64,000 nucleotides of DNA, taken from NCBI GenBank assembly GCA_000182565.2, contig KQ257469.1, one strand, 5' to 3'. Numbering within the stretch: the first letter of the stretch is position 1; each line of letters starts with the position of its first letter. The notes under the pieces are model-generated. The model was given only the letters and a program-made list of their open reading frames with translations, was not told the DNA's origin and did not search any database. Origin of the DNA: Spizellomyces punctatus DAOM BR117. Its lineage: Eukaryota. Positions 18,177-55,811 of this stretch are shown in pieces. The translations under genes and the position numbers were made by a program.

Positions 18177-21100
18177 TTATCGCTTGGGCTTCCTGAAAAG
18201 ATAGGTGAAGAAGACCGTCACGACAATGTTAAATATCCAATAGCAGATGAAAATGCCCAAATTCCTCCACCGGTTTCCAAAATCCCAATCATACACATCA
18301 ATGTACTGATTGCCGTCTGCAAATTGACAATAGTCGCAAGTAGTGGTACTGTTGGGATTCGCAATGTAGCCGGGTGCACCGATGGAAAAGAACTCTTTTG
18401 TATAGTCGTAACAAGTTGTGTTTGGCGGTGCAGAGAAGCGAATGAAATCTTCGTCCGTGCATTGTACAGGCACGTCATGAAGAACGTTGACCACAAAGCC
18501 TTCCAGGAGATAATGGTATGGATCCAGTGGATACATCCATGCCTTCCAGAACTCGGCGAGCGCTTGTGGGGGGATAAGGACACCACAGAAGAGAATGAGG
18601 AAGGAGAAAANNNNNNNNNNNNNNNNNNNNNNNNNNNNNNNNNNNNNNNNNNNNNNNNNNNNNNNNNNNNNNNNNNNNNNNNNNNNNNNNNNNNNNNNNN
18701 NNNNNNNNNNNNNNATGTTGGCGCAGAAAGCACTGTGGATACAAACCAGTGGTTAGATATTTGTATCAAAAGAAAGATGATTTACGACACACAGATACAT
18801 ACGCAACGGCCTGTCCCAGCGACACAGCGTAGAACAAGTAGAACGTGAGCAGCAAGAAGAAATAGAATCCTCGTTCCGCCGAGGTTCCGAGTCCAGCAGT
18901 CCAGTACGAGACGATGAAACAGAAAGCAGACGTGATGACCAGGTATGGGAGCTCAGTGAGCACAATCGAAATCGCAAACGGTACAAATCCATAAAACTTG
19001 CTAGCGTATTCGCGTCGGAAATAGGCTCTTTGCTGCATGAACTGAGGTTGGGCGAGAATGATAACTGAATTTCCCAAAACGAGCAACTGGAAAATGAAAA
19101 AGATACGGGATGCAAGGTCGGAAGTGGAATTGCCGAGTTGGTAAAACGTAAAACCGTTGAAAAGACCAACGAAAAGGGCGTTGAGGAATCGACCAAAGTT
19201 GTACGTGGTATCACGCCAGAATACAAGGTTCATTCTTTTGTAGACCTGAGCGAGTTGGTAACCCATCGATGTCGAGAATTCACGGGCATTGGGGTCCTTG
19301 GGTTGTGATCCAGCGCCTTTGGAAATGGTGTTGAGTTCCTCAGTGACAGACTTCTTTTCCGGACTGTTCTTCCAGACGTCCGCCCAGTCAATTGCAGATT
19401 TGCCACCAGAGACACCGGCACCGATCACCTGCAGAATGTACTCTGCAGGATTCTCCTCGGTTGAGGCCTTGCGTGCACCGTTGCGCTCAAAGTAATCCAA
19501 CATAACCTTTGAATCCTTTCCAATATCGCCAAAGTATACAGTTTTACCACCGCGAGCCAACAAGAGCAATCGGTCAAAGTGTTCAAACAAGATCGAGGAA
19601 GGTTGATGGATGGTACAAACGAGGGGCATGCCGTGATCCGCGAGTTTCCGAATAAACTTGATGATATTGTAGGAAGACTGGGCGTCGAGACCAGAGGTGG
19701 GTTCATCCAAGAACATGAGTCGGGGTTTACCAACAAGTTCCATTCCAATAGTCAGACGCTTGCGTTCCTCCACAGAAATACCACGACCAGTGTCCAAACT
19801 ACCAATGAGGGCATCACCAAGTTGAGTCATTTCCATCATGTCCAAAACTTTCTCGACGTAGGCGTATTTTTCTTCGATGGGTACCGAGGGGTCTTGACGC
19901 ATCATGGCAGAGAACCGGAGAGCTTCACGCACGGTTTGGTTGGGGTTATGGATATCCATTTGTTCAACATATCCAGTGATACGCTCAAAGTCAATGCCGA
20001 GTTCTTTACCGTCGAGGAAAACCTTTCCGTCAATGCGACCGATAGTCTTACGCTTCGCCAATACATCAAGAAGTGTTGTCTTTCCAGCACCAGAGGATCC
20101 CATGAGGGCGGTCATCTGTCCAGGCTTGATCCAGCCTTCGACGGCGTCCAAGAGCTGTCTTTCGCCGCCCTTTACGGGAACAGTGTAATTGACATCTTGC
20201 CATGTAAATGTAGTATCGCTCGCAAATCCGGTATCGCTCTCCTCTGTTGCAACCTCAGAGACTTTGAGTTCGCTCGTGTCGTTTTGTTTGGGAGCTTTTC
20301 CCTTTTTGTAGACTTGACGCGTGTATCCTCCTTCGATCAAATCAATGTATTCCATGGCAATACAGTTGAGGAGAATGAACAGGAACCAGAAGAGCACGAT
20401 GGCGATAATGCTAATGTTCATTTGACTTTCTTTGTAGCCAAAAGTTTCGCGGACGTAGTCTTCACCTCGGACGAATAGCTCGTTACCAGATTGTCCTTTG
20501 AGCGTGCACGTTCGGTAGAGGTCATTGGTATATGAGGGTCCAAAGGGTACAGCTTCGGTTCCAGTGCACGGGAAGATTAGACCTTTCATTTCGTTAAGGA
20601 GGAGAGCCTTGAAACCGTAGCCCAATGGGTTGATATAGTACAACTAGATAGAAATCAATGGATGGTGAGCTTCCTGCAATCGGCTACCGTCGCATAAAGA
20701 GATAAAGCATACCCAAATGAACCATCCGTGCATCTTATCCGTAGTAATCAAAAATCCGTTATACGACAGGGCCGCAATCAAAATGATGTTTGCAAGTTGT
20801 GATGCGCTGAAATACGATTTGCAGACACTTCCACAAAGCCTAAACACCTCTGTCATGCAGAGACCAGTGACAAAGATTGTAAACACAAACACAAAGAAAG
20901 CGCCAGCGTCCGTTCTGAGTCCTTCTATAAAGTAGGCACAGATCGAAAACGCAAACACTTGCAACAGGGTATTTGGTATATCTGCTACGACGGCGGCGAT
21001 GTGATAGGCGGAGGGGTAGTACATTGCGTAAGATTTGTGCTTGGCGAGAATCCGACGACCACGCATGGCATTGGGAAGTTCAGAGAGAGACTGTATTCAA

Positions 21101-41986: not shown

Positions 41987-43460
41987 CTACAACTTACTAT
42001 GGCTAACCTGAAGTTGCTTCTCTCTGTCAAGGACTTGACCAAGTCTCTCTAATCCAAGGCTCAATAGCGGCCATGACACAGTGAAAACAATGCGAAACCA
42101 CCCTGTCTCGGAAATATTGAACGCTTCACCTGGCAGTATATAAATCCCGCCATCCAAAAGCTTGTACCATAATTTTCTCCAGGGCTCATCCCCACTCTTC
42201 CCAGGAGCTTCAAACCATTTTGATAAATTCACCCTATAACATTATGGAACAGGTATTAGCATCAGGTAGTGGGCAGCGCAATATGAGGGTACGTACAGCA
42301 CAAAAAACCCGCTATCGGCAGTCATGAAAGGTATTTCCATCTTATTCAACTCCCCAACCAACCTCCCGTACTGTTCCTTCATCCTTTTCTGATTCTCCTC
42401 TACAAACCATTCCACCCACTGCTCGTCTTGTAATAGATTAGCAACAGCCCGATCGGCGAGACTGGAAGTGTTCGTGAATAGCGCAAACATCTGCATCGCG
42501 GCCAGTACCTCTGGGTTCCTGGATACGCAAGCACCAACACGCACGCCATTGATGCAAAAATCTTTTGACATGCTCCAAAGAACATGCGTATGCTCCGGAT
42601 CTGGGAGATCTGGGATGGATAAAACGGAGACAAAAGGGTTGGGGTTGATAAAGGTAGACAGAGCATAGATTTCATCAGAAATGACGTGGAGGTTGTGCTC
42701 TTTGGCCCAACGTAGTAAAGGCATAATTTCGGAAATCGAAAGAGCACGACCATGTGGATTTTGAGGATTGGTGAGTAGAAGTGCCCGTACTGTGATGTTA
42801 TCTTCCAGTGCAGCTTGATACGCCCTTTCTAGAGCGCTAACCTCGATCTTGAACGCATTCGCTCCGCTGGTATGAACGTGAATAGGTCGTGCTTCCGCAT
42901 ACTGACATCGGGTAAGTTTAAGAGCGGCGTCGTGACAAAGCATCTTACATCCATACCAGTGTCAAGTCAAAGTCGAAACCCCCATAGTACGGCGTAGGCA
43001 CTAAAATTCCTTCCCCGGGATTGGCAATGGTCTGTGCGATATTATTCACCGTTGCGCCGCAACCAGCATGTATCGTAATCTCATCCGGTCTAATCGCTGT
43101 ACACGGTTTCAAGTACTTGTTGAAAAGGTTGGCAACGGCTTTCCGAAGTGGTTCCGACCCGTGCATTGTTCCGTATTTCAACATATCTTCTGTTACTTGC
43201 CGTATTGAAGAAGAATTGAGCTGTGGATGATGAAAGATAATGAGAAGCTCTCCTAACATCTCTATAGCTCTTGAACGAACCTTCTCCAACAATTCTGGAA
43301 ACATCAAATGGTTTTCCGCCGTTCCCAAATTTACAACACCATTGGGAGACGCAACGGCATCATAGGGATTCGCAAGTGCTCGCGAAAGACCTTCCAATAA
43401 TGGAGACTTGTGCGCTGCGGCCGCTTGTGCTAGCCGCGATGTGCAAGGTCCTTGAGTCAT
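41987..43460 (-). CDS. PLP-dependent class I aminotransferase, ACC-synthase-like
   Basis: NPYDAVASPNGVVNLGTAEN, LVPTPYYGGFDFD, LLTNPQNPHG, ISDEIYA, SMSKDFCINGVRVG (PLP lysine), GWFRIVF. Confidence 0.9.
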
Positions 43461-43795
43461 TTGGAGATAACAAGTATGTACGATCTCACAATGGGCAGAG
43501 CAGATCAATTTCCCAAGATTCAAACATGAGTAATCTGGTTAATTAACTGAGCTGTGCTTATGTAATGAACTTATCCCGTCATTTCCAAAGTTCGGTGCTG
43601 ACAGTCGAGTTTCAAAAAGGCCAAGCTATGGCGAAGTAAAGGGACTACCATCAAGTCAACTTGGCTATTAGATCCAAAGGGCACTGAGTGGACAAGTTCT
43701 ATTCTTTTATGAACTGTTCAAATGTTTCTTTTATATGAGTCCCCGCATACTAAAAACTTGCACTACTGTCAAGACCCAAAAAGTCTGACAAAATA

Positions 43796-46700
43796 TCAAG
43801 GTTTGCCTTTGTCTGTCTGGTTCACAGACGTGCTGGAGCGCATCCTCCACTTTGCTCCGTAAATCATCACGATAACTACGAGCGCTGCACCAGTAACATC
43901 CACCATCGCCACGGACAAGAAAGCGGGCCATAGGCCTACCTTGTTAGTAAAGGGACCAATGATGGCGGAACCAAGGGCTGCCGCTGGGTTACGGAATAAA
44001 CTGTTCAGTGCCACAACACTTGAAGCTGATCCTGGAAAGCTGTCTATGAGGTACGTAGTGTTGCATGAGAAGAGCCAGGTCATCCCAAAGACACCTATTG
44101 CAATATACAATAAGCAAGGGTAACATTTTGATATACACGCAAGATGAGGTACTCACTGATAAAGAGCGACACAAGTAATAGGCTGACATGCCAGTGGAAG
44201 TGTCCCGCAAATCCAAAAAGGGCCAATCCGACTGGAAAGAGGATGATTCCAACCCACTGAGAGCGGATGCGTGATTCTGGCACATGGTCCAATCCCGTAG
44301 CTGACATCGCTTGGTGCAGCTTCCAATCCGCATAGCGGCCGCCAATAGTGGAGCCGAGAATGAATCCCACCCCAGTTGGAATGTAGGAAATGCCCACACG
44401 TGATGCGTCGTATCCGTAAACGTCTTTGAGCACAGCTGGGATTTCGACATTGAGACAGTAAAAAGAACCTGATAATGTCCATGATGGGAGAATGAGAGAA
44501 GTGACTACAAGGTATTCAATAATAACACAAATAACCTACCAAAGATGATACCGATGTAGGTGACGCATAGAGTAATGGACCTGAAGCGGAGGAAACGAAG
44601 TGGTGCAAGGGGATTATACTTTGTAGCAGACTTGGCGGCCTTGGTCTCCTCAAGGATATGCGGGCCAGGGAAGACCAACAGGCCATGGTCGGCGTACACC
44701 TGACCATTGCCAACCTTTGCTCGAAGAGTTTCCGGAAGAAACAACAAAAAGAGTATCCAAGTGACCGCTCCAAGGCCTGCCAGAAAGAAAAAGATCCATC
44801 TCCAACTGGCGTATTCAGTCAGGAAACCACCCAGAACAGGTCCAATGAGAGGTCCCATCTGCGGGCCAAGAAGGAATATCCCCATGGCTCGGCCGCGTTC
44901 GGTAGGTTTAAACAAGTCCGCAATGGTGCCAGCACCAAGAGATTGGACGGATGATGCTCCAATAGCTTGCACAATACGCAGTACGAGAAGGAGAGCATAA
45001 GATTGACTGAATCCAAGAGCAATGCTTGCGGCAACATAGATGGCAAACGATATGAGATACACGTTGCGGCGACCTGCCGAGTCCGCCAAGGTTCCCCATC
45101 CCATTGGCTGTTTGAAACAAGAAAATGCTGTAGTCACAAATGCGAAAAGGATAGAACATTCATGTAGACATTACCGCCACTGCAAAGGTCAACATAAACA
45201 TGGAAACTGTCAAGTTAATCATCGACACGCTGGTACCAAAGGCGGTTCTAATGCTCTCCATGGCAGGTAACTAAAAAGAAATGTCCATCAATGTCCCTTC
45301 GAAACTGTATGCAAAAGACGCATTACTTACATAGATATTACCAGCCAGCGGCCCAAAACCACCCGCCAATGCAATCAAAAATAGCAGGAATCTCCTGCGA
45401 GCAGGGGAATATGCACAATAAGGTTCTGATGCAGCGACTGAAGTAACCGAAAATTTTGTTGGTTCAGAAGACAGTACGATTTCCTTGACCTCGGCAGCGG
45501 GTGCGATTTCAGACCCGGGATCGGGGAGTTTGCTTTGGGTTCCTGCACCCTGTGGTATTTATTAATGGGAGAACCTTTCTTTATCTTTGGAGCAGAGAGA
45601 GATGCCAGACTTACTTTATACAAGCTGGCAAATGGTTGTTCAATGAGTAAATGGCTCGGCCTTCCATCTTCGTAGAACATAAGTTTGGGCTCTTTTTCGC
45701 CCCCGAGTTTAAGCGCATCCTTCTTCTTTGTTACAATACAGAGACCGTTACTGTCAGAGACGACAAGGTTGTGCCATGGAGTGGGTATATGAAACAATGA
45801 AATCTCTGTAGCGTCGCCTCTCTGACCGTCGAGAGTGCCAGCTTGGAAAACAAAATCTTTGTGTATGAGGTTCACTCCAAATTTGGGCCCAGCACAGTTA
45901 TATCTGTATCAATTCGAATCTTTCCGAATCAGATATGCTTCAATTTCTTGATGCTGTCATCTTCTTACTTACGGATGAATGGATATGCGAACATGAATCG
46001 GAAAAAGACGGCCAACAATTGTAGAATAAGCTTGGTTTCGCTAAGTAGGACAGAAGAAATCTTATTATCTGCATCGAATCACATATACAGAGGCTACAGA
46101 GACACTTACTATCAACATCTCCATCGCAATCTTGGAGCATAACTGCTTACGTGCATTTTTGGATGGTAACGCAAGCATTTCCGGCTGTTGCTGGAGATCT
46201 TCCAGTAAGAACCGAGAGAAGCCGCGATAAAGTCCTGTTACAGATGTATTCTGCTTGATTTCCTCATAAAGTGATTTCTCGTCTCTTCCAGCAAGAAGAC
46301 ACAATAGACGACGGGCGTCGTCAGCCGCCGGCAGCACGGACGCAGATGTGTAACGTGGAATGACATAGCAAGATAGACAAGGCAATTGCTCGGGGAAATG
46401 ACCCGGTTCTTCAGTAAATGTGGCGCGACTCGCATCAAGAGAGAGGAGATCATCAAGACCATGGAAGGTGAATATATCTGGCCTCCCTGACATGCTAGCG
46501 ACCGCAGTCCTTAACGTGCGGCCGTACTCGTTGACGCTGACATCCGGAACACCAACTGAGAGCGTAGTGATAAGTAATAAGAGACAATGTAGCTCCTCCA
46601 AATGACTACACACTTACGCAAGTCACTAAAGACATGACCATCAGAAACAATGGCGAATCGAACGCCAGGGACATACACTACTTCAATCATCTCCGCTACT

Positions 46701-47413
46701 TTGACCATAGTCTTGAAAGCGAGCTCTTCTCCTTTATCGGGAAGAGTTCCCAACACCTTGGACTCCTTGTTAGGTGACTTGCAGGGAAACCCGGGAAGGA
46801 TGAACTGAATGGGTAGGCTGCGATCGATGAAGTACTCAATCTTGTAGATGAAAAAGTCTCGCCCGCCCCCAGAGATCCATTGATCGTCGTGCGCCTTGAA
46901 ACGGAAATGACTGTCCAAGATTTCCGCAATGACAGCGGAGAGTTTTTTATTGTTTTCAGACCGCACTGGATGCAGAGACCAAGGCGTCACACGGCATTTA
47001 ATGGTGAGAAGACTCGAGAGGTAATGGATAATATCCGGCATGTTATCATTGTCAGCATCGTCGAGGTGACTGAGCGCTGCAACGCCTTGTATTGCCATAG
47101 ATGAATCCCGGGGAAGTGCCCTCTCATAGAATGTGACCGATTGTGCCGTCGTGAATTGGTCATCAAGTTCGACATTATACTTGTTGAGCTCTCCGTGAAG
47201 TCGAAGCGTAACAGCTCTGTGGCGTGCCGCTTCTTCAATAAAACTTGGTTTCACAAGCGCGGAAATGCTCGTGGGGAGCTGTCTGTCATCATCGGGACTG
47301 ACGGATTTCTCATAGGAAGAAGAAAGAAAATGAAGCTTCCCGTCCGCGTCGCATACATATACGAATAAAATAGCCTCTGTCGGCGATCTTGGCAAAGAGA
47401 TCTTGGTGTTCAT
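43796..47413 (-). CDS. DIT1: Predicted fusion of a Dit1/PvcA-type isocyanide synthase (about 533 aa) and a Dtr1/Qdr-like DHA1 MFS exporter (about 497 aa), 9 exons
   Basis: Exons 47413-46618, 46555-46110, 46040-45973, 45903-45615, 45549-45331, 45270-45175, 45107-44540, 44468-44157 and 44094-43796 give one open frame. Dit1 motifs: LPGFPCKSPN, LPDKGEELA, VSDGHVFSD, LYRGFSRF, RISIH, GPKFGV, HIPTPWHN. MFS motifs: GPLAGNIYLPA, WGTLADSAGRR, WRWIF, PETLRAKVGNG. Confidence 0.85.
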
Positions 47414-47834: not shown

Positions 47835-50054
47835 ATGGCAAACTCGACATCTGACTGCAATATTCTTATCGAAAATCCGCTTCCCAGTGGGGAGAAGCGC
47901 GAGTACACTATCGCTGAGGTGGACCGTAACGCTCCGAAAACCTCTTACGCAAGCCTCAGCAGAACGCGTGCTAGGGTGACCCTGGCTTGGTAGGCCGTCT
48001 TCTCTTTGGAACATGTCGTCGTTGTCTAACGTCACTGCTAGCGTCACTCTTGCGTACCTCATTGTCAACCTGGACGGGTCTTCCCCGTCCCTTATGACGA
48101 TTGGCAAAGACCTTGGCGCTTCTTCCCAAGAGCTTCCTTGGATTTTCAATGCATTCACGCTCGTTTCTACCCCTCTCATTCCGCTTTGGAGCCGTTTGGC
48201 TGTTGCATTTGGAGAGAGGACTTGCGTTAGCATTGGATTGCTGACGTTTGTCGCCGGTTCAATTGGCGCTGGTGCATCTAAAAGCATGGAGTCCCTTGCC
48301 ACCTTTCGTGGTTTGCAGGGACTCGGAAATTCCGCAATCACCGCCATGTCTCTCATTGTTTTCACTGGTGAGCGCTTAAGTTTTATTTCTGTTAAACTCG
48401 TGAAAATCGGTACCAATGATATCGTTCTTCAGATCTCTACCCGATTCATAAGCGTGGATTTGCATTCAATATTATTGGTGCTGCCATGGGCCTCGCAATG
48501 GTGATGATACACTTCATGGTTTTCACTCTTTGGCAGTTCAAGATGTTGATGCCGGTTCTTTTATTCACTTAGATTTTGGGCCCTGTTGTTGGCGGCTCGG
48601 TATGTAGCACGGTGCTCCAGGTAGTTTAAACCTTGCCGTCATTTAACCAATTCACTGCGCAGATTACGGACAATACTTCCATGGGCTGGAGATGGATCTA
48701 TTATATTCTCGTTCCGTTGTCTGTTTTCCTCTTGCCGCTTCCAGTATTGGTACAAAACTCTGGTGATCGAAAAACCAGTCGCGGAGCCCTGAAGGATATT
48801 GATTTCATTGGCTTCTTCCTCCTGGTTGCTACCGCAGTGTGTCTTCTATTGGCACTTCAATGGGGTGGATCCCAGTATGAATGGTCTTCTGGTGTCATTA
48901 TCGGACTGTTCTGTGCTGCTGGTGTTGCATTGGCAACCTTTGTATACGTAAGCTGATACTTGGGTTTCCTCCTCTGCAAATCGCATTTGACTAATTCTAT
49001 TGCGCCAGGTGGAAATATATGTTGCAGTGCAACCTGTGATGCCCCCGCATATGTTTAAATCTGTCAACGCCAATGCAGTCTTTCGTAAGTATACAAGTCT
49101 GCTTTTGTTATATTGATTAGCCAGCTAACCATTTGCCTGCAGTTCTGAACTTTTTCCAAGCAGGCGCTTCGATGGCTTTTATGATGTACGGGCCCATGTT
49201 CTATAAGGGCGACAAGGGTGATACAGCTCTACAATCTGCTGTTGATGTCTCTCTTCCCCTGAACTTGTCTTGGTAATTAGAGTCTGCTTTAGCAATTGAG
49301 TTCCAGCTGATCTAAAGTTGCAACACTAGGATGGTGTTTGGTATCGCTTCCTCCCGACTTTTGCCTTATGTTCGCGCCAATCACCTGGTGATCTTGGGTA
49401 CCGCACTTACAACACTAGGGACAGGTCTCTTCTCCCTAGCAGTTTCCCAAGGAGTGCCAAACAAGGGGGTTGCAGCGCTTTACCTCATGATTTTTGGTGC
49501 TGGACAAGGGTTCTCCACGCAGAACAGCTTTCTGGTAGCCCAAGCACATTTACCCGAAGGAGGTGACGCCAAGGTCATGTCCAATTTGCCCGCATACTTT
49601 CACCGCATTGGAGGAAGCATCCTAGTCGCGGTTCTTTCTAGCATCTACAAGCACGCCAATGGTAACGGAGGAATGAGTATGGGTAGCGGAGGTGGTATGA
49701 ACATGAGCGGGGGAACGAGCGGTGGAACGAGCGGTGGAATGGGCGGTGGAATGCAGGTATGTGTCTTGTGTCAGGTATTCGATACACGCATCAAACTCAA
49801 ACCTTTTATGAAAGGCACGAGACTCTATGACAATGACAATGCCAATGCCGAACAGTTCCGGCTCACAAGGAGGCATGAACATGGGCGGCAGCAATTCTAC
49901 GTCAATGGGCGGGTCGAGCATGCACATGGGTTCTACTATTGACGGTACCACTGCTGCATTCCGATGGTCCATTCTGTTTGCCGGGCTCTCGTTTCTTCTT
50001 GCATTTGGCCTCAAAAACACTTGGGTAAAACTCGGTCAAAGGATGGCTCATTAG
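47835..50054 (+). CDS. 14-TM MFS (DHA2-type) transporter with a Met/Gly-rich loop before the last TM
   Basis: LPWIFNAFTLVST...WSRLAVAFG, FRGLQGLG, GWRWIYYI, DFIG, LLLALQWGGSQYEWSS; several short introns. Confidence 0.88.
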
Positions 50055-50819: not shown

Positions 50820-52761
50820 TTACTCTAACCGCTCAAACTGTAGCCGCAGTCCAACAGGAGCCAGCAATCCACCCGGCGTCATCTTGACTTTTGCATCCCC
50901 AGTCAGGTCCCAAGTGTATTGGTGCAGCAAGACAGCTGCAATGGTTTGCATTTCTGTAAGCGCAAGTTTCATTCCTAGACCTTTACAAAGAACGCAGAAC
51001 GGTTAGATTCCGAAATGGGATAAACAGTTATGATCTTACTGAGCACTTACACTTTCGCTCCCCTTCGGAAAACGGAACCCACTCATACCTTCCCACTCCA
51101 TCTCCGAACCTTTCCGGATCAAATACCTCTGGATCCTTCCATACACGCCGATCATGGTGCGCTCCAAAAGCGTGCCAGCCTACATATGTTTGGGCAGGGA
51201 TAATGAACCGCCCGAGAAACGTGGGACGAGTCGTGCAGCGATTGATGAGCATTGGAATGGGTGGGTACATTCGTAGAGTTTCTTTTACAACTCTTTGGAG
51301 ATAAGGGAGCGAAGGCATGCGTTCTGCCGTGGTTAGCTCTTCTAACGAGTATGCCTGAACTTCAGCTCGAGCTTTGTCTTGAACGTCCTAGAGGGTGAGT
51401 GAATTTAGAATAACCTAACGTCGATGGCAGTCGATCACGTTTTACCTGGTGTTTGGCAAGAAGGTAAAGCAACGACGTTAAAGCCTGCTGAACATTCTCG
51501 TGCCCCGCAACAAAGATGACCATCAAATTGTCCTAATCATTGCAAGTTATCGCTGTGATTTGCATACATAGACCAAGACTCGCATACCAACCCTGAATTC
51601 CTTCTTCGTCAATATTCCACTCTCATACGCCTTCACCAACCTGGCGATAATTGTTAGAACTTGGTTATCCTCTTCAACGGCCTTTTCAGCTGCTTCAAAC
51701 AGCACGCTCTCCATCCAATCAATGCGACGTCGGGCATCAATGCGACTTTTTATAGGCAGCCGATCAAGAACTGGAAAGAAAAGAAAGAGGGGCTTGAAGA
51801 TGCTCTTCTTAACTATCGAATGCGCAACGGAAATTGCTGTATTGGGGTTTTTGATGGCCTTTGCAATTTCGTGTGAGATGAGACATTTCCAATCATGAAG
51901 GAATTGCAGCCCACATTGAATTTTTTGCCAAACGCGGCCATTCCAATACCATCCATTGAGAGTCTAAAAGCCAAGTGTTCGACGATGAGCGGTTCTCATG
52001 TTAGGGGCGCCACTAGTTGGTGGGTAGGGGCCTCACTCACCGTTGCATTAGATTGTTTGTTTCAACTACTTCCGCATTTTTGCACTTCTTGTCTATTTCC
52101 TCAATCATGTCCTTCACGCATTCTTGAAAGACGGCAGGCTTCCAATGCTGTCGAAACCCAGGTGCAAGAACTGTGCGGAAGCGTTGCCATGCCTGTTGAC
52201 ATCCAACAAAACCATAAGTCGGATGGCAAAGAATTGAATCGGCAAGCACTTTCACTTACTTCCTCACGGGTTGAAATGATATTGGCACCCAAGAAGTATG
52301 CCAAAACAGAATGGGGAATCTTTTCATTGTTGCCAGATTTCACAAAGTCATCTGGTATGGAAGCACACATGTAAGCGATGTCCGTACGCCGTCCTCCCAA
52401 CTCGGATACTTGCCGGTTCTACTATAGATTTCTCTCGACATGTCTGGATGCCCGGCAACAATGTTCCAGCGCCCTCCAAACCACATCTACAGCAGATACC
52501 CAGGGCCATGAGCACGTCGCTGTCAGTCGCAATCACAGGAGATCCTACCGCGACAACGCCTTCTTTTTCCATCAAAGGGCGTATGTATCTCATGTATATC
52601 TCATCTTGTCCAAGCTTTGTGACAAACCCTAGTGTGGAGACCCAAAAAGGCACCACCGGAATGTCTTTTGGAAACGAGGACGGAGGAAAGAGGATGCTAC
52701 GTAAGAAGCGTAGTAAGACTAGGGCAAGGAAGAACAGTAGAAGGGCTATGAGGTCGGACAT
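50820..52761 (-). CDS. DIT2: Cytochrome P450, Dit2/CYP56-like (multi-exon, one GC-AG intron)
   Basis: N-terminal anchor plus FPPSSFPKDIPVVPFWV, GQDEIY, FGGRWNI, KSGNNEKIPHSVLA (CYP56-like), IFVAGHEN, KETLRMYPP, FDPERF and the heme motif PFSEGERKCLG. Confidence 0.88.
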
Positions 52762-53511: not shown

Positions 53512-55811
53512 ATGACGTTGACGGATCTCATTACATTTAACAAGAAGAAGGAAACTGAAGCACGCACTGACGTGGAGGTGGAAGGTGACTTTTAGCAGGC
53601 GTTTTCCAGCTCATCGTTGCTTTTGCTAACAAAGGGCATAGTGGTTGTGTCCGACGAGGAGAACCAGAATGCACCCTTGTACAAGCACCTTCCTCTTCGA
53701 GAACTCATCATCACATACCTTGGGTAATAAATACATTCTGCATATCCTTCCTTAATACTTTCAGCTCACACATTTTCCACAAGTCTGACAAGTATTCAAG
53801 CCGTGATATCTCTCGAACGGAACGCCTTCCGTCCCATCAGTCCCAACGTGGCGTCAGACTTTGACAGTCTGAATGATCTCTCTTGGCTGGCTACCACAAC
53901 CTTTGCAGTATGGCTTGCCATCGAACCCATATGGGGAAAACTATCGGATTTGTTTGGGAGGAAGCCGCCGTTCATGATTGCCATTGTTGTCTATGTGCTT
54001 GGATTGATACTCTGTAGTGTGAGTCCATCGTGGACCGCGTTCATTGTGCGTATATCGTTGCTGTCAGATTCAAATGGCAGACCGTGTTTCGACATACCAT
54101 CTTTTGTTTTGCAATTCAGATTTTCAGAGCTATTTCCAGTATTGGATCTGGGGGCATCAACAATGCTGTCAACATCATCATATCTGGTAAGTACATAAAA
54201 TACCCTAGAACCCAAAAGGTTATTTGAACGTGACAATGGTCCACTTGCTTTTACTTTAGATATTGTTCCCCTGCGTCACCGTGGAAAATATCAATCTTAC
54301 TACGAAGTAGTGTTCCTCGGTACCAACGTCCTCGGCCCTGTCATGGGCGCAGCATTTGCGAACAACGACAAATGGCGTGGCAATTTTTATGTCTCTGCAG
54401 CATGTGCCACGTTTGTAGGGATTCTCCTCGCCTGGAAATTAAAGTTACCCAGTGCCTTTCGAAGCAAAGAATCGAGTGTAGCTAGAAGAGTTTACGGTCG
54501 GTTGAGAAGAGTTGATTATATTGGGACATTGATGGTTTCGGTGGGAGCTTTTGCTGTTGCTTGTGGCCTTCAACTTGGGAATCGAAAGGAATTCGGATGG
54601 AGCTCCGGTTGGTCTACGCATTTGATCACTATGCCTAACATAGAAGACTAAAATTTCCTTAACTTTCAAGCCAACGTTATAGCTCTTCTCACCTGCGGTT
54701 CGCTGCTTTCAGCTTTATTTGTCGTATATGAATGGAAATACGCTCGTGAACCTCTTCTCCCTCTGCGCCTATTCCGTTATCGAAACGTTGCTGTTGCATT
54801 TTTATTGTCGTTTATCCTCATGATTGGAACAAGCGGGCACGAGCTGTACCAGACCACCTTCTATCAGGTATAATACTGACATTGCACCATTCGGGAAAAC
54901 GTTCCTAGACACTGACAAGTGTCACATGGTTGGACTAGAATATCGTTAACCTGACTCCCTTCAAAGTCGGGCTCATCGAATGGGCCGAAACCATTGGCCA
55001 GACCGTCGGTGGAATTGCGTTTGGGTGGGCCATGGCCTTAACGGGACGGTACCGGCCTTTTCTCTGGTTGAGCATCGCACTAGTGTGTTGCGGCGTTGGG
55101 ATGATGGTGCAGATAAACCCAGATATACCTCATGCTTTATTGGTTGTCCAACGAGCGATATTCGGGATTGGGTTTGGAGCTGTATCCCATGTATTGCTCA
55201 TTGCAGCGCAGGTTGCTGTTGAGCATGTTGGTCGGTTCTTGGCAATGCATTTGAATTTTTTTTTTTTGCATCAGACTAACTCAATACCGCTTATATTCTA
55301 GACATTGCCATCGTAACATCCATGTTCTTTTTCTTTCGCGCGTTGGGGGGTCTCCTCGGTAATGCAATGTATGGCGCATTGTACGATTTTTGGGTCACCC
55401 AAGCATTGCGGAACAGGGCGCCGCCGAATACACCCCAAAGCGCGATCGATGCTGCCAAAAACTCTCTGCGCGGTGGTCGGACTGGAGGTGGACGGTCTAG
55501 TCCAACCTTGGATCGATCCATCGTGGCGAATGCGTACGCTGACACCTCTAGACAGATTATGTGGACTGAATTTGGTATTCTGGTATTTGCGCTTCTCGCC
55601 TCTTTGACGATAGAGCATTTTCCTTTGCCAAAAACTTTGGTGAGTATTAAATTGGATTCGCATTGGGACGGAATGGTGATTGATGATCTCAATTGGGTTT
55701 CCATAATAGGGACGTCGTGGAGTAAAAAGTCATGAAGAGATATCTACTGAGACCCGCTGCGAAACGAAACCAGGATCCGAGGACGAAAGCGCGCCGCCCA
55801 AACCGGCATAG
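53512..55811 (+). CDS. 14-TM MFS (DHA2-type) efflux transporter
   Basis: DLSWLATT, PIWGKLSDLFGRKP, ISDIVPLRHRGKYQ, GPVMG, RRVDYIG, EPLLPLRLF, FFRALGG. Confidence 0.9.

What the first reader, a model, noticed from the sequence alone, without database searches (positions are those of the whole stretch)
43796..47413. Dit1-type isocyanide synthase fused in frame to a Dtr1-like exporter
Seen: the complete Dit1-like domain ends ...FASLYK at a perfect GTAAGT donor (45614). A 65-nt intron ends in CAG (45550), and phase-0 splicing continues GAGTQSKLPDPG...YSPARRRFLLFLIALAGGFGPLAGNIY/LPA, which is TM1 of the MFS. The MFS frame has no ATG before TM1, has an in-frame TAA inside the intron, and has no promoter space, so it appears unable to start on its own. 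Known: in S. cerevisiae Dit1 makes the formyltyrosine precursor and Dtr1, a separate unlinked gene, exports bisformyl-dityrosine. Inference: a single membrane-anchored synthase-exporter of about 1,030 aa that may channel a reactive or toxic isocyanide/formyl product. I do not know whether this architecture has been described.
Basis: partly seen in the sequence, partly recalled or inferred. Interest (0 to 1): 0.92.

Follow-up and report, generated by a model that had tools for sequence, protein, structure and literature searches.

The report
Chytrid Dit1–Dtr1 enzyme-exporter fusion gene
In this chytrid fungus the enzyme that starts the dityrosine (spore-wall) pathway and the membrane pump that ends it are encoded as one protein, next to the pathway's P450 gene, an arrangement that fungal isocyanide-synthase surveys do not list but that has not yet been confirmed at the RNA level.

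Summary
A nine-exon minus-strand gene (47413–43796) gives one open 1,030-codon frame. It is identical to the deposited Spizellomyces punctatus protein P0001, which is named only "multidrug resistance protein". It carries a complete DIT1_PvcA domain (192–501) and a complete 12-helix MFS_1 domain (593–973), joined by a disordered tether (535–572) that starts at the intron-4 junction.

Fused relatives occur in four chytrid orders and in one unnamed lineage. The fused proteins group together in trees of both halves. The transporter half is sister to the ascomycete Dtr1 clade (98/99 support). In that clade the transporter is a separate gene inside dit1–P450–MFS clusters.

The window therefore holds a whole dit-like cluster, and direct Dit1-to-pump channelling is not the simplest reading.

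The junction itself is untested by RNA. The only usable run is a 3′-tag library. It maps the poly(A) site (43683) and confirms intron 2, but leaves intron 4 uncovered.

Two ICS surveys list three architectures, none with a transporter. Verdict: probably a real fusion, a new variant of a known kind, of moderate interest.

The parts
43796..47413 (-). Complete coding region of the Dit1-Dtr1 fusion gene: 9 exons, 8 introns, 1,030 aa plus stop
   Evidence: Exon model built. Identical to public protein P0001. Pfam finds DIT1_PvcA plus MFS_1.
45615..47413 (-). Exons 1-4 (47413-46618, 46555-46110, 46040-45973, 45903-45615): Dit1-type enzyme half, residues 1-533
   Evidence: Pfam DIT1_PvcA on exons 1, 2 and 4 and on P0001 residues 192-501. 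Intron 2 (46109-46041) is confirmed by 3 spliced RNA reads. The model is confidently folded.
45550..45614 (-). Intron 4, the fusion intron: 65 nt, GTAAGT...CAG, phase 0. It contains the in-frame TAA (45561-45559) of the transporter frame and an AATAAA at 45563.
   Evidence: No RNA read covers it: bin depth 0.14.
45331..45549 (-). Exon 5: disordered tether (residues 534-572), the conserved pre-TM1 motif PYCAYS..RRR, and TM1
   Evidence: pLDDT is below 50 for residues 535-572, and the helix starts at 582. The motif is shared with fused relatives and with stand-alone Candida and Eremothecium Dtr1.
43796..45270 (-). Exons 6-9 (45270-45175, 45107-44540, 44468-44157, 44094-43796): TM2-TM12 of the Dtr1-type MFS exporter and the stop codon
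   Evidence: Pfam MFS_1 on exons 7 and 8. Twelve helices in the model. Dtr1-sister placement in the tree.
43683..43795 (-). 3' UTR ending at the poly(A) site (43682/43683)
   Evidence: 46 reads carry untemplated T-runs at 43682/43683. Sense depth is 97-136 in 43644-43931 and 0 in 43500-43643.
50820..52761 (-). Dit2-type cytochrome P450 gene, multi-exon. Bounds are approximate: ATG at 52761, stop at 50822-50820.
   Evidence: tblastn with 4 of 4 dit-cluster P450s gives E 3e-25 to 6e-20. Pfam p450 scores 108.8 bits on exon 51387-51028. The N-terminal exon scores 40-50 bits against dit-cluster P450s but has 0 hits in the whole PDB at E<=10.

Best explanation
This is a real fused gene that encodes one polypeptide.

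Architecture. An N-terminal cytosolic Dit1-type enzyme (residues 1-533) is joined by a disordered tether of about 38 residues to the cytosolic N-terminus of a 12-helix Dtr1-type MFS (DHA1) exporter. The tether sits where ordinary Dtr1 proteins have their own N-terminal tail.

Pathway. Together with the Dit2-type P450 encoded 3.4 kb upstream, it forms a chytrid version of the yeast dityrosine pathway:
1. The Dit1 domain modifies the amino group of L-tyrosine. The product is N-formyl by analogy with yeast; an isocyanide is not excluded.
2. The membrane-anchored P450 couples two such molecules.
3. The Dtr1 domain exports the product to the wall.

What the fusion probably does. It fixes a 1:1 ratio and co-expression of the first and last steps, and it places synthesis of an unstable intermediate at the membrane.

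Shown: gene structure, domains, conservation, phylogenetic placement, the neighbouring P450 and the mRNA 3' end.
Inferred: splicing of intron 4, chemistry, substrate and localisation.
For: Gene structure:
- One open 1,030-codon frame through 8 uniform introns of 60-71 nt.
- The frame is identical to deposited P0001.
- A full Dtr1-type N-terminus cannot start on its own. There is a TAA in the intron and no ATG before TM1.

Domains and fold:
- Both Pfam domains are complete.
- The AF2 model has mean pLDDT 88.2. It shows two folded domains, a linker (535-572) with pLDDT below 50 that starts at the exon 4/5 junction, and 12 TM helices.

Fused relatives:
- Borealophlyctis (1,058 aa), Cladochytrium tenue (923 and 881 aa), Irineochytrium (1,108 aa) and the unnamed P0005/P0172 (1,059/1,064 aa).
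- Including the window's own Spizellomycetales, the named fused proteins come from four orders of Chytridiomycetes.
- P0005's contig is 3,325 bp for at least 3,177 coding nt. That fused frame must therefore be essentially uninterrupted, which does not depend on splice prediction. This is arithmetic; the DNA was not seen.
- 7 of 188 candidate sequences match both halves.

Trees:
- Dit1 tree: the 7 fused rows plus one partial model form one group, SH-aLRT 90.
- MFS tree: the fused rows plus P0029 form a clade at 100/99. P0001 and P0002 pair in both trees.
- The transporter half is sister (98/99) to a 100/100 clade. That clade holds proteins named DTR1 from Candida and 'Dtr1p' from Eremothecium, plus the MFS genes of four dit1-P450-MFS clusters.

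Other:
- The pre-TM1 motif is shared with stand-alone Dtr1 proteins.
- A Dit2-type P450 lies 3.4 kb upstream.
- There is one strong poly(A) site, 113 nt past the transporter stop.
- A C-terminal GFP tag on yeast Dit1 leaves it functional (PMC7345447, passage). A C-terminal appendage is therefore tolerated.
Against: - No RNA read spans intron 4. The library is 3'-biased, and sense depth in the bin that holds the intron is 0.14.
- Sense depth shows a small bump of 1.4-5.0 over Dit1 exons 2-4 (45660-46235), against 1 or less across 44220-45659. Intron 4 holds an AATAAA. A Dit1-only transcript is therefore not excluded.
- Four of the six fused relatives are automated gene models. One of them (P0021) also swallows an Ist1 domain, which shows that such pipelines over-merge genes.
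- A stand-alone 478-aa transporter (P0029, Cladochytrium replicatum) nests inside the fused clade.
- 0 of 20 metagenomic Dit1 loci are fused.
- If the P450 acts between the two fused activities, the benefit of fusing steps 1 and 3 is not obvious.
- S. cerevisiae Dtr1 itself was not in any tree.
Confidence: 0.72

Rival explanations
1. The locus makes both a fused protein and a soluble Dit1-only protein. The second would arise by retention of intron 4 or by polyadenylation within it, so that the cell can switch between tethered and free enzyme.
For: Intron 4 has an AATAAA at 45563. In the 3'-tag library, sense depth is 1.4-5.0 over 45660-46235 but 1 or less across 44220-45659. A single 3' end does not predict that pattern.
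Against: The bump amounts to roughly a dozen reads. No poly(A) loose end near 45540-45560 is among the rows shown, although 115 rows were not shown. Read-through of the retained intron adds 79 unrelated codons before a stop.
Confidence: 0.15
2. These are two adjacent same-strand genes wrongly merged by gene prediction. Dit1 and the MFS would then be separate proteins, as in yeasts.
For: Over-merging does happen in this family's models: P0021 includes an Ist1 domain. A stand-alone relative, P0029, exists. The junction is not covered by RNA.
Against: The transporter frame has a stop 12 nt upstream of exon 5 and no ATG before TM1, so a separate protein would lack TM1. Only 65 nt separate the two halves. 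The Dit1 frame has no stop at its end unless it reads 79 junk codons. The fusion point is shared across orders. P0005's frame nearly fills its 3,325-bp contig.
Confidence: 0.07
3. The fused pump exports the monomeric Dit1 product (isocyano- or formyl-tyrosine) directly. Any coupling then happens outside the cell, and the nearby P450 is not part of the route between the two domains.
For: Fusing an enzyme to a pump suggests product hand-over. Formyl-tyrosine is reported to be unstable in lysate (PMC7345447, passages). Two further MFS genes in the cluster could carry the dimer.
Against: The transporter half belongs with Dtr1, which is described as exporting dityrosine made in the cytoplasm by Dit1 and Dit2 (PMC3744438, passages). 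A Dit2-type P450 is clustered with the gene. The 38-residue disordered tether gives no fixed geometry, and pTM is 0.60.
Confidence: 0.2

Closest known systems
S. cerevisiae Dit1 / Dit2 / Dtr1 dityrosine pathway
   Same: The same three protein types are present. The Dit1 family is met (Pfam). The P450 is Dit2-type. The exporter is sister to the Dtr1 clade. The pathway logic is cytoplasmic synthesis followed by export (PMC3744438, passages).
   Different: Here Dit1 and Dtr1 are one polypeptide, and the organism is a chytrid rather than an ascomycete. In yeast DTR1 is YBR180w and is unlinked to DIT1/DIT2; the unlinked status is recalled, not from a call. The product and wall role in chytrids are unknown.
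Ascomycete dit1-P450-MFS gene clusters (for example the locus whose MFS is 99% identical to a Candida albicans protein)
   Same: The same three genes lie within a few kb. The MFS of these clusters is the closest non-chytrid relative of the fused half, at 36-38% identity.
   Different: They are three separate genes, with Dit1 divergent from the P450 and MFS. None is fused: 0 of 20 loci.
Described multidomain isocyanide synthases: ICS-TauD/DOX (XanB) and ICS-NRPS-like (CrmA)
   Same: A PF05141 domain is fused to another pathway function.
   Different: The partner here is a transporter, not an enzyme. Both surveys state three architectures only (PMC5974471, passages; PMC10153163, section 18 read whole).
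Solved structures: yeast Qdr2 (32pz), Tyr/Trp isonitrile synthases (9dhm, 9dh4), PvcA (3e59)
   Same: These are the best PDB sequence matches: E 1.3e-39 for the transporter half, and 2e-31 and 9e-25 for the enzyme half.
   Different: All are single-function proteins. The bacterial enzymes lack the fungal N-terminal extension of about 190 residues.

Membership tests
DIT1_PvcA (PF05141) isocyanide-synthase / Dit1 family | Profile match above the curated cut-off over the whole domain | tested here: met
   259.3 bits against a cut-off of 26.4, profile positions 1-266 of 273.
DIT1_PvcA (PF05141) isocyanide-synthase / Dit1 family | Family-invariant residues retained | tested here: met
   P0001 carries all columns that are invariant across the 8 fused and unfused chytrid Dit1 proteins. 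Examples are FPCKSPN, IVSDGHVFSDL.GV, RGFS.FL, R.SIHP and FH.PTPWHN.
DIT1_PvcA (PF05141) isocyanide-synthase / Dit1 family | Catalytic activity, and whether the product is N-formyl or isocyanide | not testable with these tools
   Only literature on yeast Dit1 was seen (PMC7345447, passages).
Dtr1-type DHA1 MFS exporter | MFS_1 profile match and 12 transmembrane helices | tested here: met
   177 bits, profile positions 2-346 of 347. Twelve helices from residue 582 to 1028 in the model.
Dtr1-type DHA1 MFS exporter | Phylogenetic placement with proteins named Dtr1, apart from other DHA1 transporters | tested here: met
   The fused clade joins the Dtr1/dit-cluster clade at 98/99, excluding 20 other DHA1 rows and 2 outgroup rows. 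S. cerevisiae Dtr1 itself was not included. The Dtr1 names are those given by the sources.
Dtr1-type DHA1 MFS exporter | Export of bisformyl-dityrosine | not testable with these tools
dit gene cluster (Dit1 + Dit2 P450 + transporter) | A Dit2-type P450 next to Dit1 | tested here: met
   A P450 gene lies at about 52761-50820. Its N-terminal exon matches 4 of 4 dit-cluster P450s at 40-50 bits but has 0 PDB hits at E<=10. Its conserved C-terminal exon does not discriminate: 59-80 bits against 70.7 for the best PDB P450.
Single fused transcript / polypeptide | RNA molecules that join 45615 to 45549 | tested here: inconclusive
   The 3'-tag library gives depth 0.14 at the junction. No joint is listed there. 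Intron 2 and the poly(A) site are confirmed.

The most novel reading that the evidence does not exclude
The most novel reading has three linked claims.
- An ancient fourth isocyanide-synthase architecture (ICS-MFS) arose once, before at least four chytrid orders diverged. It may have arisen when the spacer between adjacent dit1 and DTR1 genes became intron 4.
- It nucleates a membrane-bound assembly with the anchored Dit2-type P450, which builds a dityrosine-like protective wall polymer in chytrids.
- Alternative 3' processing at intron 4 switches between a tethered enzyme and a free one.
Probability: 0.2. Interest if true: 0.7.

Novelty: new variant of a known kind. Interest (0 to 1): 0.52.

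Why it matters
It is a natural 'Rosetta-stone' fusion. It independently ties Dit1 to Dtr1, two proteins that are linked in yeast only by genetics.

It also indicates that a complete dit-type pathway (enzyme, P450 and exporter) exists in Chytridiomycota. The main ICS survey that I read does not mention chytrids.

It adds an enzyme-transporter architecture to the three ICS architectures listed in the literature.

It offers a tractable test of whether tethering a biosynthetic enzyme to its pathway's exporter matters, by splitting the fusion. It also raises the question of which chytrid cell type carries a dityrosine-like wall layer.

Tried and rejected
RNA evidence:
- The look-up of sequencing runs: no RNA holder listed.
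- Read laying: X7 and X8 laid 0 contigs. X6 is 3'-biased and gives no verdict on the junction. X1 is low-coverage DNA.

Whole genome:
- The genome search 'own': no genome is held, so paralogues elsewhere in the genome could not be sought.

P450 searches:
- A first P450 search with the P450 half of P0024 found nothing in the window. This was a false negative, corrected.
- The P450 part of P0024 also found nothing in the loci.
- Protein Atlas on the P450 N-terminal exon: best scores were 0.85, below the 0.9 lead threshold, so it was not used.

Related sequences:
- The metagenome scan gave 0 of 20 fused loci.
- Name look-up of ten neighbouring MFS representatives returned no yeast Dtr1. S. cerevisiae Dtr1 was never placed.

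Earlier findings of this scan: nothing.

Literature searches for a described ICS-MFS or Dit1-Dtr1 fusion, or for dityrosine or isocyanide in chytrids or Spizellomyces:
- Searches listed no paper whose title or abstract start mentions one. Of the listed papers I opened only PMC10153163, PMC7345447 and PMC5974471 (passages).
- Searches found 0 papers.
- Supplementary tables of PMC10153163 and PMC5974471 (domain lists) are closed. They might list such proteins.

Rows dropped before the final tree:
- near-duplicates P0173, P0175, P0182, P0172 and P0004;
- MFS hits ranked below 40 by bit score;
- outgroup rows P0027 and P0028, which filled under a third of the columns.
Full report
OBSERVATION.

The gene lies on the minus strand. 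Reading 47800-43500 and building the exons mechanically gives nine exons: 47413-46618, 46555-46110, 46040-45973, 45903-45615, 45549-45331, 45270-45175, 45107-44540, 44468-44157 and 44094-43796. They total 3,093 nt, that is 1,030 codons with one terminal stop.

The eight introns are 62, 69, 69, 65, 60, 67, 71 and 62 nt, and all are GT..AG.

In the transporter frame a TAA sits at 45561-45559, inside that intron. There is no Met until residue 77 of the transporter half, which is after TM1. If the intron is not spliced, the Dit1 frame runs on through 79 unrelated codons.

The translation of my model equals the public protein P0001 exactly. P0001 is named 'multidrug resistance protein [Spizellomyces punctatus DAOM BR117]'.

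DOMAINS AND FOLD.

P0001 has a complete DIT1_PvcA domain (259.3 bits, residues 192-501) and a complete MFS_1 domain (177 bits, residues 593-973). The single exons show the same domains.

The nearest solved structures by sequence are yeast Qdr2 for the transporter half (E 1.3e-39), and Tyr/Trp isonitrile synthases (E 2e-31) and PvcA (E 9e-25) for the enzyme half.

An AlphaFold2 model made with a 76-row alignment has mean pLDDT 88.2 and pTM 0.60. It shows two confident domains and an unstructured stretch at 535-572 with pLDDT below 50. That stretch begins right at the exon 4/5 junction (533/534). Twelve helices follow, from residue 582 to 1028.

Hydrophobic segments occur only after residue 586. 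Three arginines precede TM1.

It is established knowledge, not tested here, that both ends of a 12-helix MFS face the cytosol. An N-terminal enzyme would therefore sit on the cytosolic face.

RNA.

No run is on record as an RNA holder of this stretch. One RNA run with raw reads for the same species label could be laid. It is a 3'-tag type library.

- Sense depth is 97-136 in 43644-43931, then 1.4 or less from 44076 to 45659.
- 46 reads with untemplated T-runs mark a poly(A) site at 43682/43683, 113 nt past the stop.
- Three reads skip 46109-46041, which confirms intron 2.
- The bin that holds intron 4 has depth 0.14, and no joint is listed there.

The fusion junction is therefore neither confirmed nor refuted.

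One thing remains unexplained. Sense depth rises to 1.4-5.0 over 45660-46235, the 3' part of the Dit1 half. Intron 4 also holds the only AATAAA in 45300-46300. A minor Dit1-only isoform cannot be excluded.

RELATIVES.

A search with exon 1 among longer proteins found 20 hits. Five of them carry both Pfam domains. A whole-length search found 13 hits, of which six carry both.

The fused proteins, besides the window's own, are:
- Borealophlyctis nickersoniae, 1,058 aa;
- Cladochytrium tenue, 923 and 881 aa;
- Irineochytrium annulatum, 1,108 aa;
- the unnamed P0005 (1,059 aa) and its cluster mate P0172 (1,064 aa).

With Spizellomyces, these represent Spizellomycetales, Rhizophlyctidales, Cladochytriales and Chytridiales.

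An exhaustive phmmer scan of 1.84 billion representatives gave 55,134 hits at E<=0.001. Among all 188 candidate sequences I held (182 fetched proteins and 6 locus ORFs), 7 match both halves.

P0005 sits on a 3,325-bp contig. Its 1,059 codons need 3,177 nt, so that fused frame is essentially uninterrupted. This is arithmetic; I could not fetch the DNA.

There are cautions. The named fused relatives are automated models, and P0021 also includes an Ist1 domain, so it is over-merged. P0003 and P0004 lack TM1.

In the alignment, the end of Dit1 (DGRPSH), a variable linker, and a conserved motif (PY.AYS..RR) before TM1 line up in P0001, P0002 and P0005. The same motif precedes TM1 in stand-alone Candida albicans and Eremothecium Dtr1 proteins, which carry their own N-terminal tails. 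The tether thus corresponds in position to the normal Dtr1 tail.

TREES.

Dit1 half (45 rows, quick search):
- The seven fused rows, plus P0030, form one group with SH-aLRT 90. P0030 is a 332-aa model cut at both ends, so its fusion state is unknown.
- The unfused chytrid Dit1 proteins lie outside this group. They come from Geranomyces (two), Powellomyces, Blyttiomyces (partial) and Phlyctochytrium.
- The backbone is unresolved.

Transporter half (47 rows, careful search):
- Five fused rows plus the stand-alone P0029 form a clade at 100/99. P0029 is named 'dityrosine transporter A' and comes from Cladochytrium replicatum (478 aa).
- P0001 and P0002 pair at 100/98, as they do in the Dit1 tree.
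- A second clade at 100/100 holds the source-named DTR1 proteins of Candida, Cyberlindnera and Eremothecium ('Dtr1p Ecym_7063'), filamentous ascomycete relatives, and four MFS genes from dit clusters.
- The two clades join at 98/99, excluding 20 other DHA1 rows and the outgroup.
- The dropped rows are listed under Tried and rejected.

P0029's place inside the fused clade means either a later split or an incomplete gene model.

GENOMIC CONTEXT ELSEWHERE.

A metagenome scan returned 20 Dit1 loci, and none is fused. In 6 of the 20 (four distinct arrangements), Dit1 lies on one strand. A P450 (Pfam 138-181 bits) followed by an MFS lie on the other strand within 2-3 kb. That MFS is 36-38% identical to the fused half.

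One such MFS is 99% identical to a Candida albicans protein. The transporter type that is fused in chytrids is therefore the one that sits as a separate gene in ascomycete dit1-dit2 clusters.

CONTEXT IN THE WINDOW.

Using those cluster P450s as queries, I found a multi-exon P450 gene on the minus strand at about 52761-50820. E-values were 3e-25 to 6e-20 with 4 of 4 queries. An earlier search with a divergent P450 had missed it.

Its conserved C-terminal exon does not discriminate. It scores 59-80 bits against dit-cluster P450s and 70.7 bits against the best solved P450. Its N-terminal exon does discriminate. It scores 40-50 bits against all four dit-cluster P450s and has no hit in the whole PDB at E<=10. 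I read it as Dit2-type.

Two TRI12-like MFS genes lie on the plus strand at about 47835-50054 and 53731-55735. An ACC-synthase-like PLP enzyme lies just downstream at 43460-42242. Whether these three belong to the pathway is unknown.

MECHANISM.

[quoted passage not shown] Dit1's product is most likely formyl-tyrosine, which is unstable in lysate, and PvcA does not replace Dit1 (PMC7345447, passages).

The most economical reading is that the chytrid has the same three-step route, with steps 1 and 3 on one chain and step 2 encoded alongside. The fusion would give fixed stoichiometry, co-expression and membrane-proximal synthesis.

Chemistry, substrate and localisation are all inferred.

NOVELTY.

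The fused model is in public databases but is not named as a fusion. Two surveys of ICS architectures list three types only:
- PMC5974471 (passages) lists monodomain, ICS-DOX and ICS-NRPS.
- PMC10153163 (section 18 read whole) says all its ICS enzymes matched one of those three. The word 'chytrid' does not occur in its text.

Six literature searches were run. Five of them were aimed at such a fusion or at chytrid dityrosine and isocyanide. In their listings no title or abstract start mentions one, and searches found no paper at all. Of the listed papers I opened only four, and only as passages, plus section 18 of the preprint in full. Supplementary tables could not be seen.

I rate it a new variant of a known kind and moderately interesting. 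The decisive missing piece is a cDNA across the junction.

Noticed in passing
window 47835-50054 (+) and 53731-55735 (+), approximate: Two further MFS genes with TRI12-like (DHA2-type) matches. Each is divergently paired with a minus-strand gene: the first with the fusion gene, the second with the P450. They may be additional exporters of the cluster.
   Followed up: partly
window 42242-43460 (-): An ACC-synthase-like PLP enzyme (Aminotran_1_2; best PDB match ACC synthase, 115 bits). It starts about 220 nt beyond the fusion gene's poly(A) site. Any pathway link is unknown.
   Followed up: partly
window 45660-46235 (-) and 45563: 3'-tag RNA depth rises to 1.4-5.0 over Dit1 exons 2-4, while the transporter exons upstream of the 3' pile-up stay at 1 or less. 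Intron 4 holds an AATAAA. This may indicate a minor Dit1-only isoform.
   Followed up: no
window 47458-47456 (-): An in-frame ATG lies 15 codons upstream of the annotated start at 47413. The true start codon is not settled.
   Followed up: no
protein P0073 (Magnusiomyces, 810 aa): Dit1 domain fused to a DJ-1/PfpI domain. ThiJ/PfpI proteins in ICS clusters are described as isocyanide-hydratase homologues (PMC5974471, passage). This is another unlisted ICS architecture, and it bears on the formyl-versus-isocyanide question.
   Followed up: no
protein P0024 (unnamed, 709 aa): A P450 domain fused N-terminally to a Dit1 domain, that is, a possible Dit2-Dit1 fusion. It sits on a very long branch in the Dit1 tree.
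   Followed up: partly
protein P0045 (Acaulospora colombiana, 756 aa): A methyltransferase domain fused to the N-terminus of a related DHA1 MFS. This is another enzyme-exporter fusion model.
   Followed up: no
protein P0021 (Irineochytrium annulatum, 1,108 aa): The gene model contains Dit1 (N-terminally truncated), MFS and an Ist1 domain. It is almost certainly over-merged with the next gene.
   Followed up: partly
window 18611-18714: The only run of N in the window (104 bases).
   Followed up: no
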